From the NCBI GenBank assembly GCA_028534125.1, contig CM052837.1, positions 20,956,001-21,020,000 of the forward strand: a stretch of 64,000 bases of DNA, read 5' to 3'. Numbering within the stretch: position 1 is the stretch's first letter; every line of letters begins with the position of its first letter. Shown here piece after piece: positions 2,727-53,604 of this stretch. The DNA is from Lama glama. Taxonomy: Eukaryota. A program made the translations under genes and the position numbers. A model generated the notes under the pieces. It was not told the origin of the DNA. It was given only the letters and a program-made list of their open reading frames with translations, and did no database searches.

Positions 2727-2799
2727 GCAAAGATGCCTTTCGATGCCAACAAACTGTATTGTAGTGAAGTGCTGGCCATATTGCTCCAGGACAACGATG
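2727..2799 (+). CDS. CTNNBL1: CTNNBL1 internal coding exon (exon 8 equivalent), 73 nt, phase 0 to 1
   Basis: tttccccacag|GCAAAGATG...GACAACGATG|gtgagg; translates AKMPFDANKLYCSEVLAILLQDND(E). Confidence 0.97.
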
Positions 2800-3035
2800 G
2801 TGAGGCTCCCTCTTGGTATTGATATACTGTTAGGATAGGAGCCAGGCTTGTTTCAGATCATGACAGCAAGCTCTCTTGCCTTTGGCATCCCCTTGCTCTC
2901 CCTCTCACTCTCTGTGCAGCTTTTGTACTCTGTCAGGGTGTATTGATTTTGTTTGCTGATGTATCAGTGTTAGACGGCTGTAAAATCTGACAGTTAGCTT
3001 CATTTTTTTTTCTTCCTATTTTTTCCCCTTTTTAG

Positions 3036-3094
3036 AAAACAGGGAATTGCTTGGGGAGCTGGATGGAATCGATGTGCTTCTTCAGCAGTTATCC
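3036..3094 (+). CDS. CTNNBL1: CTNNBL1 internal coding exon (exon 9 equivalent), 59 nt, phase 1 to 0
   Basis: Long pyrimidine tract ttttag|AAAACAGG...TTATCC|gtgagt; in frame with the previous exon gives ENRELLGELDGIDVLLQQLS. Confidence 0.97.
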
Positions 3095-4392
3095 GTGAGT
3101 AATTCTTATGCTTCCTGCCTGCCATGAAGATACATGGCTTGCTTTATTTAAGTGGGGGGTGGAGCTGGAAATTTCGGGAAGGAATAAGCCATATGGGGTA
3201 TGTTGGCAGGTTTGAGACTACATTGGAGGTACACGGTTTGTCTCCTTTTCTTAGTCATTTGCTTTTTATAACCAGATATCACTGTGTATCTGGTGAGGAC
3301 TTTTGATATTTGTCAGTCTAAAAGAGGTGTACTTCCTGCTTAAGTGTATGTTCTTGGGCCAAGAATACCAAATTGTTTTCAGTTGACCCACTCCAAAGAT
3401 TATTCGTTTTCTTTCCTGTCAATCTGCTGCTAACATGGAGTTAGTTCACTTAGGATCCAGATAAGCTCCAGGAGTACAACTTCCAATACAATGGGATAGA
3501 GGTCACAGAAGAGGGGAGGGAAGGATGTGGCATTGGAGGTTGGAATAAGGAATCAGGAATTGCCATTTGCTCATTGTAATAAATATAAATCCAGTTGAAA
3601 TGATGTTCTGCTGGCGTTCTGAAAATACTGTTAGGATTTTTTCTAACAAATCTCATCCGTACTATTCCCAAACCAGGACTGAAAATAGATCATTTGGATT
3701 AAATCTTGAGAGTGTTGGGAGTGTCTGAGATGTCAGTTTGCATACAGCTTCCATTTTGGTGCCAGCAGCCTGAGTGACTTGGCCTCCATCCTAAAAAAAT
3801 AGAGCTTTGAATTGTGAATCTGTTTACAGTTCTGGGAAAGTGCTTAGTCCTATTCTTGCAAGATTATTGATCATTTTGTAAGAGACTGTATGGATATGCA
3901 TACACTGTTAAAAGGCTTTTTCCTTTTCACATGCCATATATTTCTGGAAAAGACAAAACTTGTGCTTTGAGCTGTTCCCATGACTTAGAGCCACAACTGG
4001 TATACGAGGCAGTTTAGCAGCCCTGATGGTTAGGAGACTCTTCCTTATTATCGAGCCAAGATTTGCCCTTCTGGATTGTGGTTTCTTTTCGAAGGGGAGG
4101 AGATGGGTTGTGGTTGGGTGGGGCTCTGCCTCCTTGCAACTATCAGTCACTCATGGACACAATGGTCAGTTGAGAGTTTTGGTTTTTACATGAACAAGAC
4201 ATTTATTTAATACCTGTGAATCAGAAAACCCAGTTTCTCTAAAATGGAAACTGATGAGAATTTTGTTTGGTAAGCTTCTGTTTCTTCAACTGGGCGTAAT
4301 CAGGACAGACAGGCTTTGGAAATTGTTGAGTGCTGGTTGATGAAAAGACATTCTCTTATGGTTCTGTGCTTTCTGATGTCTTTGTTTTACAG

Positions 4393-4541
4393 GTGTTTAA
4401 AAGACACAATCCTAGCACCGCTGAGGAGCAGGAGATGATGGAGAATCTGTTCGATTCACTCTGCTCCTGCCTAATGCTCAGTTCCAATCGTGAGCGCTTC
4501 CTGAAGGGCGAGGGTCTTCAGCTGATGAATCTCATGCTCAG
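4393..4541 (+). CDS. CTNNBL1: CTNNBL1 internal coding exon (exon 10 equivalent), 149 nt, phase 0 to 2
   Basis: ttttacag|GTGTTTAAAAGA...ATGCTCAG|gtatgc; VFKRHNPSTAEEQEMMENLFDSLCSCLMLSSNRERFLKGEGLQLMNLML(R); lies within ORF-track entry 4330..4602. Confidence 0.98.
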
Positions 4542-7469: not shown

Positions 7470-7616
7470 NNNNNNNNNNNNNNNNNNNNNNNNNNNNNNN
7501 NNNNNNNNNNNNNNNNNNNNNNNNNNNNNNNNNNNNNNNNNNNNNNNNNNNNNNNNNNNNNNNNNNNNNNNNNNNNNNNNNNNNNNNNNNNNNNNNNNNN
7601 NNNNNNNNNNNNNNNN
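7470..7616. other. N-run (147 nt)
   Basis: Direct; lies between a short CA repeat and the 3' end of a minus-strand L1. Confidence 0.99.
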
Positions 7617-18647: not shown

Positions 18648-20805
18648 ATACAAAAAAAGCATTTGACAAAATCCAACACCTTTTCATGATAAAAAGACTT
18701 AAACTAGGAATAGAAGGGAACTTTTTCAACCTTTGAGATAGTCTCTGTAAAAAATCCACAGTTAACATTACATTTCATTGTGAAAGACTGGGTCCTTTCC
18801 CCTAAGATCAGCAATAAGACAAGGATACTCACCTTCATCACTTCTATTCAGCATTGTACTAGAGGTGTGCCGGAGCAATTAGGCAATGAAATGAAGTAAA
18901 AGGCATCCAGATTGGGAGGGAAGAAGTAAAACTATCTCTGTTTGCAAATGACATGATGTTGTATTTATAAAATCCTAAGGAATCCACCAAAATCTATTAG
19001 AAGTAACAAATGAGTTCAACAAGGTTGCAGGATATAAGATTCATACACAAAATCAATTGTACGTCTATACACTTGGAATGAANNNNNNNNNNNNNNNNNN
19101 NNNNNNNNNNNNNNNNNNNNNNNNNNNNNNNNNNNNNNNNNNNNNNNNNNNNNNNNNNNNNNNNNNNNNNNNNNNNNNNNNNNNNNNNNNNNNNNNNNNN
19201 NNNNNNNNNNNNNAAAGAAGATCTAATAAAATAGAAAAATATTCCACATTCATGGGACAGAAAATTTAATATTGTTAAAAACGGCAGTACTCCCCAAAGT
19301 AATCTACAGATTCAGCACAATGTCTATGAGAATTCTAGCTGACTTCATTGTAGAAATTGACAAGCTGGTCCAAAAATTCATGTGGAGTTGCAAGGGACTT
19401 AGAATAGCTAAATAGTCTTAAAAAGAACAATGTAGGGTTCCCACTTTTAAAACTTACTACAAGGCAGTGGTAATCTAGACAGTGTGGCCCTGGCATACTT
19501 TAATGAAATACAATTGAGAATCCAGAACCATGTGTCTATGATCAGTTGATTTTCAACAAGATTACCAAGACCGTTAAATGGGGAAAGAATAGTTTCTTCA
19601 TCAAATGGTACTGGGACAGTTGGATATCCACATGCAAATGAATGTAGCTGGACCCTTACCTCATACCACATACAAAAAATAACTCAAAATGAATCAAAGA
19701 TCTAAATGTTAGAACTAAGACTATGAAACTCTTAGAAGAAAACTGGTGTAAATCTTCATGATACTGGGTTTGGCAATGGTTTCTTAGTTGTGACACCAAA
19801 AAAGCAAACAACAGAAGAAAAAATAGGTAAGTTTTATGCTTCGAAGGGCATTATCAAGAAAGTGGGAAGTTATCACCTAGAATGGAAGAAAATATTTGCA
19901 AATCATTTATTTGTTAAAGGACTTGTATCCAGAATAAAGAAGTCTTACAACTCAGTAATAAAGATAGTTAAACTAATTTAAAAATGGGCAAAGGATCTGA
20001 ATAGACATCTCTTCAGATAGCATACACAAATAGCCATCATGATTTATCAGGGAAATGCAGATCAAAAGCAGAATGAAATCCCATTTCATACCCAACAGGA
20101 CAGCTGGAACCAAAAAGTCAGATGATGAGTGTGTTGGTAACGATGTGGAGAAATCAGAACGCTTACATGCTGCTGGTGGGAATTTAAAATGGTGCAGCCT
20201 CTTTGAAAAAGCCTGACGGTTCCTCAAAAGGTTTAAACATAGAGTTACCCGGTACCCCAGCAATTTCACTCCTAGGTATACATATACTGAAGAGAAATGA
20301 AAACATTTTTCTACACAAAAATGTGTATGTGAATGTTTGTAGTAGCATTATTCATAATTACTGTTCATACTAGCCAAAAGGTAAAACACCCCAAATGTCC
20401 ATCAGTGGATTAATGGATAGACAAATTGTGACATCTCCATACAATTGTTATTTAAGGATAGAAAAAGTGAACTTCTGCTACGTGCTCCAACATGAACCTT
20501 GAAAGTATTATGCCAGGTGAAAGAAGCCAGTCACGAAAGGCTGTATATTGTATGGTGCTGTTTACTTGAAATGCCTCACGTAGGCAAATCCATAGAGACA
20601 GAAAGTAAATCAATGGTTGTTTAGGGCTAGGATGGGGTAATAGCTTAAGGGAAGGTGAGTTCTTGCTAGGGTGATGAAAATGTTCTATAATTGACTGTGG
20701 TGATGGTTTCACATTATCTGTGAATATTCTAAAATCCTTTGAACTGTACATTGTAAATGGGTGAATTGTTTGCTGTGTGAATTCTATCTTGGTAGAGCTG
20801 TTAAA
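18648..20805 (+). mobile_element. 5'-truncated L1MB (L1MB7/8-like): ORF2 3' half and 3' UTR, inserted into an older antisense L1
   Basis: aaaagcatttgacaaaatccaaca, cttctattcagcattgtactagagg, ggcaaatccatagagacagaaagta, gggtgatgaaaatgttcta; degenerate TSD aaaaggagtagtaag / aaaaggaataatagg; many stops. Confidence 0.92.
19083..19213. other. N-run (131 nt) inside L1 ORF2 remnant
   Basis: Direct; both flanks are collinear L1 ORF2 sequence. Confidence 0.99.
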
Positions 20806-21202: not shown

Positions 21203-21384
21203 AGAGAAGAAGATCTCCCGGAGCAGTGCCCTGAAAGTGCTGGACCATGCCATGATTGGACCCGAGGGCACAGACAATTGCCACAAGTTTGTTGACATTC
21301 TTGGCTTACGAACCATCTTTCCCCTTTTTATGAAGTCTCCCAGGAAGATCAAGAAAGTGGGAACCACTGAGAAGGAGCATGAAG
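21203..21384 (+). CDS. CTNNBL1: CTNNBL1 internal coding exon (exon 11 equivalent), 182 nt, phase 2 to 1
   Basis: ttcccag|AGAGAAGAAGATC...CATGAAG|gtaggg; (R)EKKISRSSALKVLDHAMIGPEGTDNCHKFVDILGLRTIFPLFMKSPRKIKKVGTTEKEHE(E). Confidence 0.98.
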
Positions 21385-36000: not shown

Positions 36001-37732
36001 CCTGTTAAGAAAGACCCGTTGGGAAAGGCACATACATCTCTCAGGCCCTTAGTTCTTTATTTGTACAACTGTAAAATGGTTGCATTGGGTGTGTGGAAAG
36101 ATTAGCTTGTGGGAAAATGACGATGGCAAAATGCTCCATATACTTGCCAGTTGTTGATTATATCTTGTTAGTAGAACAGAACATGGAATCGGTCTTCACA
36201 AATGCAGAGTGTTTTTTAGGATTAACCAGGTTCCTGTATCTCCTCCCTGTTGTGAGTCTAATACCGGTTAGAATATGATCCTGAAGCATTTTCACAGAGA
36301 TGACTGCACGTGTTCCCAGTAGCTTTTGTGTGTGCAAGATTATAGAATGGTTTAGTTCGTTACTCTCACACTGGAAATGAGAGAACTAAGTTAGTGCAGT
36401 GCTGAAATTCCTTCTGTCCTTTCACTCTGCTATATTACTGGCTGATGGAAGGAAAGGTTAAGAAGTCACACTTCAAAAAAATGAACATAAAGCCGCCTTG
36501 GGGCTGTGAGCAGGTTTTTCTGGTTTCTGTGGAAATCAGCTGAAGCCCTGGAATCTGGAGGAAGAGTGTGTGGAGCCCAGCAGCTGGTGAGGCTGCAGGA
36601 GCCCAAAGGAGGACTTCGCTGCTAACTGTGGGAAGAATAGGAGGAGGAGCCTGCGGCTGTCGGAAGAGAGCAAAGACGGGACTGGTGAACAAGGTGAAAG
36701 TAGTGAAGAGGCTGGTGTAGACCATTCCCTGAAGGCCCTGGAAACGGGGGTGGGGGGGGGGTTAGTTTTGTTTTGTTTTCTAAACTGAATTTCTGATCTA
36801 AAGCAGGCATCCAGGGATGGCTTTTCAGAGTGTGAAAACACCTCCCTTGCTTTGGGGCTGTGATTATTAACTCTCCTGCTCCAAGGCAGGTTGATACTTG
36901 GAAAGTGGGAAATTGGAATAGCGAACAAGTCACTGATGAGGGGAGAATGCAGGAGAATTCTGGCACTTGTACTTAACCCCGTGTGTGCTGGATCCGTGCT
37001 GTGCCAGGGTTCTGCTGTGCTTCCCTAACCCTTTAGGCTTGTTTGAGAATACAGTAAACTAACCAGTGAAAAGGACTCTTTTATTATGGTTTTTGTAGGG
37101 TGGGTAGGGAGAGGAGTGGTAACTATGTAATTTTTTAACCCTGAAAGGTCTTCTAGGCCACAGAGTCAGTTTAAAATAATTTAGATGAAATACTCCTAAG
37201 TGATGTGTTAAAGGAAAGTAAATGGTAACCAGCCACGCCTGACATTCAGACGGCTTCATCTAGGGGGCTCACTAAAGGACTCCGTGTGGTGAGTCAGAAG
37301 CCACGTGTTTGAGCCATCTCATACCAGTTCCTCAGAGTACTGCCGGCTGTGGGTGCTGCTAACGTGAGTACTGGTGGGAATGCAGAGAGAAAACAGAAGT
37401 GCCGAAACTCCAGGCATTTATTTTCTACCATTACAAGAATGAGGGTTAATTAAAAAAAAGAAAAAAAATTTTTAAGCTGTATCAGTCCTCCCAGCCAGGT
37501 TCTCTAGAATATAATGGAAAGTGTTCTAAAGAGATCCTTCAAGACAGATGAAAAGAAAGGAATGTACCTTTTCACCAGCAGTTACTCCTGGTTCTAGGAC
37601 TTTACCCACCGGGATGTGTGGCTGGTTCCAAAAATGAGTGAGACTGTACACTCAGCTTTCTTAGGGTAAATACCTCAACTCTCAGGATACAGTTTCTCTT
37701 TGGACTTCCTGGAAAAGAACTAACTAGATAAG

Positions 37733-41153: not shown

Positions 41154-41285
41154 NNNNNNNNNNNNNNNNNNNNNNNNNNNNNNNNNNNNNNNNNNNNNNN
41201 NNNNNNNNNNNNNNNNNNNNNNNNNNNNNNNNNNNNNNNNNNNNNNNNNNNNNNNNNNNNNNNNNNNNNNNNNNNNNNNNNNNNN
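41154..41285. other. N-run (132 nt) in apparently unique intronic sequence
   Basis: Direct. Confidence 0.99.
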
Positions 41286-49955: not shown

Positions 49956-50900
49956 TGGGGGGAAATGCTTCTGATATAAGTGAGGAGAAAAACAAATACA
50001 AAATTATATCTGTGCTACCATAAGAATGCTTACTTGTGGCTTTAACAGTCAAGTGACTTTTTTGAGACTTCAAGGGAACTTTGGCATATGGCGATGTTCT
50101 TCAGTCAGTTTTCAAATAGAATATTTGTTGCCCATGCTCTGGGCATCTTATTTCAAAATAAACTTTACTCTGCCATTTCTCCTTGGCTAGACTTCTGCCA
50201 TCTCCTTTTCAAGGTCATTATTCTTGATTTTTAAAAATTCTTTTTAAAGAAAAGAATCTCTTTACAGCTGAAACCTGTAGTAAACCCTTCAATTACTCTC
50301 TTCTTTTCTGGGTAGAAAAAATAGTATCTCATAATAGAAGCCCACAGGTTATGTGAACTTAAAAAACATTGTTACCATTTTGAAGTACTTACTGATCAGC
50401 TGCTTTTAAACTTGAAGGGGTTCTAGCTGCACCAGAATGTAAATGCTAGCACTGGGACCTCATCATATTTCTTACTTAATTCTGGGATACTTACTTGGGA
50501 AGGTTATAAGGTAATTTGAAAGTATGATAGAACATGTCTTATTTGTTCATTATGCATGTGTATGGCTAGTATTCATACTCTATTCACAGGTTATTTCTGT
50601 AAATGGGGGGATTCGTTTGCGGTGCTCTTGTGGACAATGAAAATCAATTAATTCTAGGCAGAATAGAAATTCTATCTTTCAATTCACTTGCTCAAGTTGT
50701 CCTTGAGGATATCGTCCCTTTTGAATATGTTTCTTGTGCCCGATGTGAACGTCAGTTCAGTGTTCCATTGACAGTTTAGGTTCTTGTCTTATTAATCAAT
50801 AGCAGCAGTCAGGGAAGGCCTGCTTATTCCTCCTTCAATAGAACCAGACCAGGCTTGAAGAGAGGTAATAATTACTGCTCTGATCACAGCGTGTTCTCTT

Positions 50901-51032
50901 NNNNNNNNNNNNNNNNNNNNNNNNNNNNNNNNNNNNNNNNNNNNNNNNNNNNNNNNNNNNNNNNNNNNNNNNNNNNNNNNNNNNNNNNNNNNNNNNNNNN
51001 NNNNNNNNNNNNNNNNNNNNNNNNNNNNNNNN
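50901..51032 (+). CDS. CTNNBL1: Inferred CTNNBL1 exon 12 (about 98 nt) hidden in an N-run; coordinates are those of the N-run, not the exon
   Basis: Exon 11 ends in phase 1 and exon 13 starts in phase 0, so a 3n+2 exon is required. The expected EHVCSILASLLRNL...ENDSEK coding sequence was not found in the called bases. The N-run is immediately preceded by a branch-point-like ctctgat and the pyrimidine tract gtgttctctt. Confidence 0.72.
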
Positions 51033-51329
51033 CTGTAAAGATGGGACCAGGACCAGCGAGGATAAAAGGACTCTATCTAATGCGATCTGAGGGGTGCTGG
51101 GTTGAGAGTTCCTGTCCTAAAATATCTCCTCCAGCATCTGGGCCCCGTTGCTGTGGCTCTCAGAGGTTTCTCTGGTTATTCTGTCTCTCGTCTTCAAATG
51201 CATTCCCCTGGAAGTAGTAAAACCTCAGGTCGGTATCAACTAGCACTTTAGGGGGATTTTTAGACCCAATGAGAGTGGATTATGATAGGATTTTGGTTGG
51301 GGGAGAGGGAGCTTGCACAGCCTAACAAA

Positions 51330-53523: not shown

Positions 53524-53604
53524 GTCGACAGATTGATGGAATTGCATTTTAAATATCTGGATGCAATGCAGGTGGCCGACAAGAAGATTGAAGGAGAGAA
53601 ACAT
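53524..53604 (+). CDS. CTNNBL1: CTNNBL1 internal coding exon (exon 13 equivalent), 81 nt, phase 0 to 0
   Basis: ctctctctttcag|GTCGACAGA...GAGAAACAT|gtatgt; VDRLMELHFKYLDAMQVADKKIEGEKH. Confidence 0.97.

What the first reader, a model, noticed from the sequence alone, without database searches (positions are those of the whole stretch)
50860..51032. An essential CTNNBL1 exon is missing from the called sequence and maps to the N-run
Seen: exon 11 ends GAA G| (phase 1) and exon 13 begins |GTC GAC (phase 0), so joining them directly frameshifts. I found no sequence encoding the intervening peptide in the 32 kb between them. The 132-nt N-run begins right after ctctgatcacagcgtgttctctt (branch point plus pyrimidine tract) and lies 2.5 kb before exon 13. 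Recalled: human exon 12 is 98 nt (EHVCSILASLLRNLRGQQRTRLLNKFTENDSEK) and lies about 2 kb before exon 13. Inference: the exon starts a few bases into the Ns. An apparent exon loss or pseudogenisation here would be an artefact. If the fill lacked the exon, it would be a remarkable lesion in a highly conserved splicing gene.
Basis: partly seen in the sequence, partly recalled or inferred. Interest (0 to 1): 0.75.

Follow-up and report, generated by a model that had tools for sequence, protein, structure and literature searches.

The report
Masked, intact CTNNBL1 exon 12
The seemingly missing exon of the splicing gene CTNNBL1 is not lost: a search of the source genome finds its coding match, free of stop codons, exactly under a stretch that was blanked with N in this window, so this is likely an ordinary, intact mammalian gene.

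Summary
The window holds exons 8-13 of a mammalian, camelid-like CTNNBL1 gene. In detail: exon 11 (21203-21384) ends in phase 1, exon 13 (53524-53604) starts in phase 0, exactly 98 nt are missing, and nothing in the visible sequence encodes them. But this is neither a lesion nor an assembly gap. A Pfam PF08216 search of the window's own genome hits window 50918-51019, wholly inside the N-run, over exactly the missing profile positions 347-382, above the family cut-off and with no stop inside. The genome therefore has letters where the window reads N, so the N-run is a mask. All three N-runs in 130 kb of flanking sequence are 500 N, unlike the window's four runs of 131-147 N. Coordinate arithmetic puts exon 12 at 50919-51016 (inferred; the letters were not read). 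The other 15 exons are open and in register for a 563-codon protein, and exons 1-11 and 13-15 match a dromedary RefSeq protein at 495 of 496 codons. Verdict: masking artefact over an ordinary conserved exon.

The parts
2727..2799 (+). CTNNBL1 exon 8 (73 nt, phases 0/1)
   Evidence: 24/24 whole codons identical to dromedary P0132; AG/GT borders
3036..3094 (+). CTNNBL1 exon 9 (59 nt, phases 1/0)
   Evidence: 19/19
4393..4541 (+). CTNNBL1 exon 10 (149 nt, phases 0/2)
   Evidence: 49/49
21203..21384 (+). CTNNBL1 exon 11 (182 nt, phases 2/1), residues 345-404
   Evidence: 60/60 to the human PDB chains and to P0132
50880..50900 (+). Visible part of the likely 3' splice region of intron 11: branch-point-like CTGAT (A at 50883, 36 nt before the inferred exon start) and start of the pyrimidine tract
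   Evidence: only yTnAy motif in 50840-50899; its role as branch point is inferred
50901..51032 (.). 132-nt N-run: a mask over genome letters, not an assembly gap
50919..51016 (+). CTNNBL1 exon 12 (98 nt, phases 1/0), residues 405-437; borders inferred, letters not read
   Evidence: match at 50918-51019, profile 347-382, no stop; profile positions of flanking exons; 145-codon open frame; 98 nt needed; register of a bat read-through model
53524..53604 (+). CTNNBL1 exon 13 (81 nt, phases 0/0), residues 438-464
   Evidence: 27/27 to P0132, 26/27 to human

Best explanation
The source genome carries a stop-free CTNNBL1 coding match under the N-run at 50901-51032, which is likely the normal 98-nt exon 12 (predicted borders 50919-51016), hidden only because this copy of the window was masked there. 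The gene would be spliced as in other mammals: exon 11 (phase 1), a 29.5-kb intron, exon 12, a 2.5-kb intron, then exon 13 (phase 0). That gives the full 563-aa armadillo-repeat protein of the CDC5L/Prp19 spliceosome complex. Shown: position, frame and absence of stops of the match; integrity of the other 15 exons. Inferred: exact borders, AG/GT dinucleotides, residue identity and actual splicing.
For:: PF08216 match at G000:C22:21006918-21007019 = window 50918-51019 (102 of 102 bases are N in the window), 33 bits against a cut-off of 27, E 2.2e-5, no stop inside, profile 347-382; the exon-11 peptide matches profile 288-345 over residues 1-59 and exon 13 starts at 382, so the match fills exactly the hole; the open frame between visible stops (50780-51214) is 145 codons, equal to the 145 aa reported. 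The 34 codons fit 1 intron base + 98 exon bases + 3 donor bases; 98 nt are needed, the total is 1689 nt = 563 codons, and 495 of 496 visible codons match dromedary P0132. P0132 has 33 residues between the two peptides; 76 of 120 homologs have exactly 33; 27 of 31 listed cluster members have 33; 3 of 3 N-runs in 130 kb of neighbours are 500 N; a bat model that reads through the exon-12 donor has its best ungapped placement at 51119, the place predicted from a donor at 51017.
Against: The letters under the N were not read, so splice dinucleotides and identity are unverified; one search gives no identity value. No RNA evidence was obtained. One older dromedary model (P0046, KAB1262367.1) ends after exon 11 in an intronic piece and lacks exons 12-16. 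A pig model (P0035) has nothing between the two peptides and a stork model (P0075) has 21 unrelated residues. The bat read-through match is weak on its own (E 0.023, second-best hit in the window by tblastn), and its 16-residue block was chosen after seeing that alignment.
Confidence: 0.97

Rival explanations
1. The exon is physically present but damaged at a splice dinucleotide or by a small change near its edge, so that it is skipped and the gene is frameshifted.
For: The letters were not read, and one search reports only a protein-level match. One dromedary model lacks exons 12-16 (P0046).
Against: No stop in a 145-codon frame and exact register with both flanking exons. The other 15 exons are free of lesions, with 495/496 identity to P0132, which argues for purifying selection. 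The RefSeq dromedary protein has the 33 residues. Germline loss of the gene kills mouse embryos (PMC3610721, abstract).
Confidence: 0.02
2. The N-run is a true assembly gap and exon 12 is simply uncalled.
For: In the window alone, a gap and a mask look the same.
Against: A search of the same assembly scores a 34-codon match inside the run, which cannot come from N. N-runs in the neighbouring 130 kb are all 500 N.
Confidence: 0.005
3. Exon 12 is truly lost, or lies elsewhere (for example in the 41154-41285 run).
For: No trace in the visible sequence.
Against: One search places profile 347-382 at 50918-51019 and lists no match at 41154-41285. That search is not exhaustive: it scored 11 candidates and missed exons 1, 2, 9, 13, 15 and 16. 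The positive hit nevertheless accounts for the whole missing segment.
Confidence: 0.005

Closest known systems
CTNNBL1 (beta-catenin-like protein 1; Pfam PF08216 CTNNBL), human chains 7abi_S, 4hm9, 4cb8
   Same: Exon-11 peptide 60/60 and exon-13 peptide 26/27 identical; same 563-codon length once 98 nt are allowed for exon 12.
   Different: Nothing structural found; only scattered substitutions.
Dromedary CTNNBL1 isoform X1, XP_064331769.1 (P0132)
   Same: 495 of 496 whole codons of exons 1-11 and 13-15 identical; carries the 33 residues of exon 12.
   Different: This RefSeq isoform has another C-terminal tail after exon 15, which maps to L012 about 2928-3110. The canonical exon 16 was scored against mouse P0055 (24/28).

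Membership tests
CTNNBL1 orthologue (PF08216) | Match to Pfam PF08216 above the curated cut-off | tested here: met
   exon-11 peptide 64.1 bits against 27 (the 27-aa exon-13 peptide alone scores 14, under the cut-off); 6 of 10 genomic matches over the cut-off, all 10 at this locus.
CTNNBL1 orthologue (PF08216) | Full-length, colinear, open coding sequence of about 563 aa | tested here: met
   15 visible exons chain in register with no stop, 1689 nt including a 98-nt exon 12; one search shows no stop in the exon-12 match.
CTNNBL1 orthologue (PF08216) | Canonical splice sites at exon 12 | not tested
   The dinucleotides lie under the N and were not read; they are inferred from register only.
CTNNBL1 orthologue (PF08216) | Expression of an exon 11-12-13 mRNA, and binding to CDC5L/Prp19 | not tested
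   No RNA reads were laid. The complex membership comes from abstracts (PMC3610721; start of the abstract of PMC4585563).
Pseudogene or exon-loss allele | Absence or disruption of a coding exon in the genome | tested here: not met
   the exon-12 segment is present and stop-free; no lesion in the other 15 exons.
Assembly gap | No called bases in the assembly at the N-run | tested here: not met
   scores a 102-nt coding match inside the run; neighbouring N-runs are 500 N (3 of 3).

The most novel reading that the evidence does not exclude
Exon 12 is present but its splice sites are crippled in this lineage, so that CTNNBL1 transcripts end instead at the in-phase, stop-carrying piece in intron 11 (36540-36625) used by one dromedary model, giving a C-terminally truncated spliceosomal protein in a living mammal.
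Probability: 0.015. Interest if true: 0.6.

Novelty: not a real feature. Interest (0 to 1): 0.03.

Why it matters
Biologically it does not matter: the apparent exon loss is made by the masking of the window, and the gene is a well-known conserved one. A real loss would have mattered, because germline ablation of CTNNBL1 is embryonic-lethal in mice (PMC3610721, abstract). For the scan itself there is a practical lesson: an N-run of about 130-150 nt in such a window can hide a whole coding exon, so 'missing exon at an N-run' findings should be checked by a family search of the own genome before being scored.

Tried and rejected
(1) Ab initio AG..GT exon scan of the + strand: 22 candidates, none resembling the missing peptide. 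It found only exon 8 of the five visible exons, so it is too insensitive to count. (2) Profile of the intervening 33-mers against six frames of the visible window: best E 0.8. (3) tblastn of four full-length homologs on the window: no hit covering the exon-12 segment, beyond up to 3 residues of overhang at exon 11 and 1 at exon 13 in the three that carry it. (4) The 41154-41285 run as the site of exon 12: no match listed there (search not exhaustive). (5) A second or processed copy elsewhere in the genome: searches list matches at this locus only; these counts are lower bounds. (6) The bat read-through model P0058 as positional proof: weak by E-value (0.023 in the window), kept only as supporting register evidence. 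(7) Exon-chaining scripts stalled at exon 5 because only GT/GC-AG introns were allowed; intron 4 is AT-AC, and completed with that allowed. (8) Earlier findings near this place: none.

Full report
Observation. The window has four N-runs: 7470-7616 (147 nt), 19083-19213 (131), 41154-41285 (132) and 50901-51032 (132). The exon at 21203-21384 encodes a peptide identical to residues 345-404 of human CTNNBL1 (563-aa chain 7abi_S), and the exon at 53524-53604 encodes residues 438-464 (26 of 27 identical). Thirty-three codons lie between them. Exon 11 supplies one base, so 98 nt are missing. A direct join shifts the frame and stops after 9 residues. A profile of the intervening peptides of homologs finds nothing in the visible six frames (best E 0.8).

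The segment is conserved. Of the 120 homologs listed (the best 120 of 710), 76 have exactly 33 residues between the two peptides, and 53 of these 76 are identical. Thirty-seven had no exon-13 peptide by my score threshold; many are short ORF fragments that read from exon 11 into the intron. Seven had other spacings: five hold the 33-mer plus extra residues, a pig model (P0035) has nothing between, and a stork model (P0075) has 21 unrelated residues. Of 31 further cluster members listed, 27 have 33 residues, and 4 could not be scored by exact motif. The dromedary RefSeq protein P0132 has the 33 residues and contains both window peptides as exact substrings. An older dromedary model, P0046, ends after exon 11 in an intronic piece and lacks exons 12-16. 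I read it as an annotation artefact; that is an inference.

The decisive result. The window is G000:C22:20956001-21020000. A search of G000 with PF08216 gave 10 matches from 11 candidates, all at this locus. One lies at 21006918-21007019, window 50918-51019, where all 102 bases read N in the window. It scores 33 bits (cut-off 27, E 2.2e-5), has no stop inside, and covers profile positions 347-382. Residues 1-59 of the exon-11 peptide match profile 288-345 and exon 13 starts at 382, so the match fills exactly the hole. The search reports an open frame of 145 aa; the nearest visible stops in that frame enclose 50780-51214, which is 145 codons. The assembly therefore has called, stop-free letters under the N. 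In line with this, the 130 kb of flanking sequence fetched (13 stretches) holds three N-runs, all of 500 N, and none of 131-147.

Exon borders (inferred). The match is 34 codons. The simplest reading is one base of the acceptor AG completing the split codon 405, 98 exon bases, and three donor bases (GTN) aligned to the Val that opens exon 13. This puts exon 12 at 50919-51016, intron 11 at 29,534 nt and intron 12 at 2,507 nt. The only yTnAy motif in the 60 visible bases upstream is CTGAT at 50880; its A would be at -36, within the usual branch-point range (recalled). A weak independent check: a bat model (P0058) reads through the exon-12 donor into the intron, and a 16-residue block of it scores best at window 51119, the place predicted from a donor at 51017 (score 46, next best 39). 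The block was chosen, where the tblastn match had E 0.023 and ranked second, so this is support only. The letters, the AG and GT, and the residue identity were not read.

The rest of the gene. Chaining exons over the window and the fetched loci gives 15 visible exons, all open and in register, with exactly 98 nt missing and a total of 1689 nt = 563 codons up to a TAG. Identity is 498 of 524 whole codons to mouse P0055, and 495 of 496 to dromedary P0132 (exons 1-11 and 13-15). All visible introns are GT-AG except intron 4, which is AT-AC with a U12-type 5' site and branch sequence. CTNNBL1 is listed among genes with a U12/U2 twintron in PMC3564746 (one table passage seen) and PMC8329584 (one passage seen); those passages do not name the intron. 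There is no sign of pseudogenisation.

Mechanism and comparison. This is an ordinary CTNNBL1 orthologue. The protein is an armadillo-repeat factor associated with the CDC5L/Prp19 complex, inessential in cell lines but needed for mouse embryonic development (PMC3610721, abstract only). Splicing of exon 12 here is inferred, not shown. I ran two paper searches and make no claim about what is absent from print. No supplements were opened. No earlier scan findings lay near this place.

Verdict. Not a real feature; interest 0.03. The only unusual reading left, an exon with crippled splice sites, gets about 1.5%.

Noticed in passing
G000:C22:20931579-20940740 (L008/L009; upstream of the window): Intron 4 of the gene is an AT-AC intron with a U12-type 5' site and branch sequence. 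CTNNBL1 is already listed as a U12/U2 twintron gene (PMC3564746, PMC8329584; single passages seen). The 376-aa U2 variant in that table has the same length as homologs P0018, P0019 and P0150.
   Followed up: partly
window 36540-36625 (+): An AG-preceded piece in intron 11, in phase with exon 11 and ending in TAA, matches the last 28 residues of dromedary model P0046 (26 of 28). It is either a prediction artefact or a rare alternative last exon; no RNA evidence was sought.
   Followed up: partly
window 53524-53604: Exon 13 is a phase 0/0 exon of 81 nt; horse (P0022) and razorbill (P0067) models join exon 12 directly to exon 14, an in-frame skip.
   Followed up: no
L012 about 2928-3110 (G000:C22 about 21032930-21033110): The C-terminal tail of dromedary RefSeq isoform X1 (P0132) maps about 0.4 kb before the canonical exon 16, suggesting an alternative last acceptor.
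   Followed up: no
window 7470-7616, 19083-19213, 41154-41285: Three more N-runs of 131-147 nt, likely masks as well by their length. The 19083 run sits in LINE-1-like sequence (recognised from memory, not tested); the other two are intronic with no CTNNBL1 match listed.
   Followed up: partly
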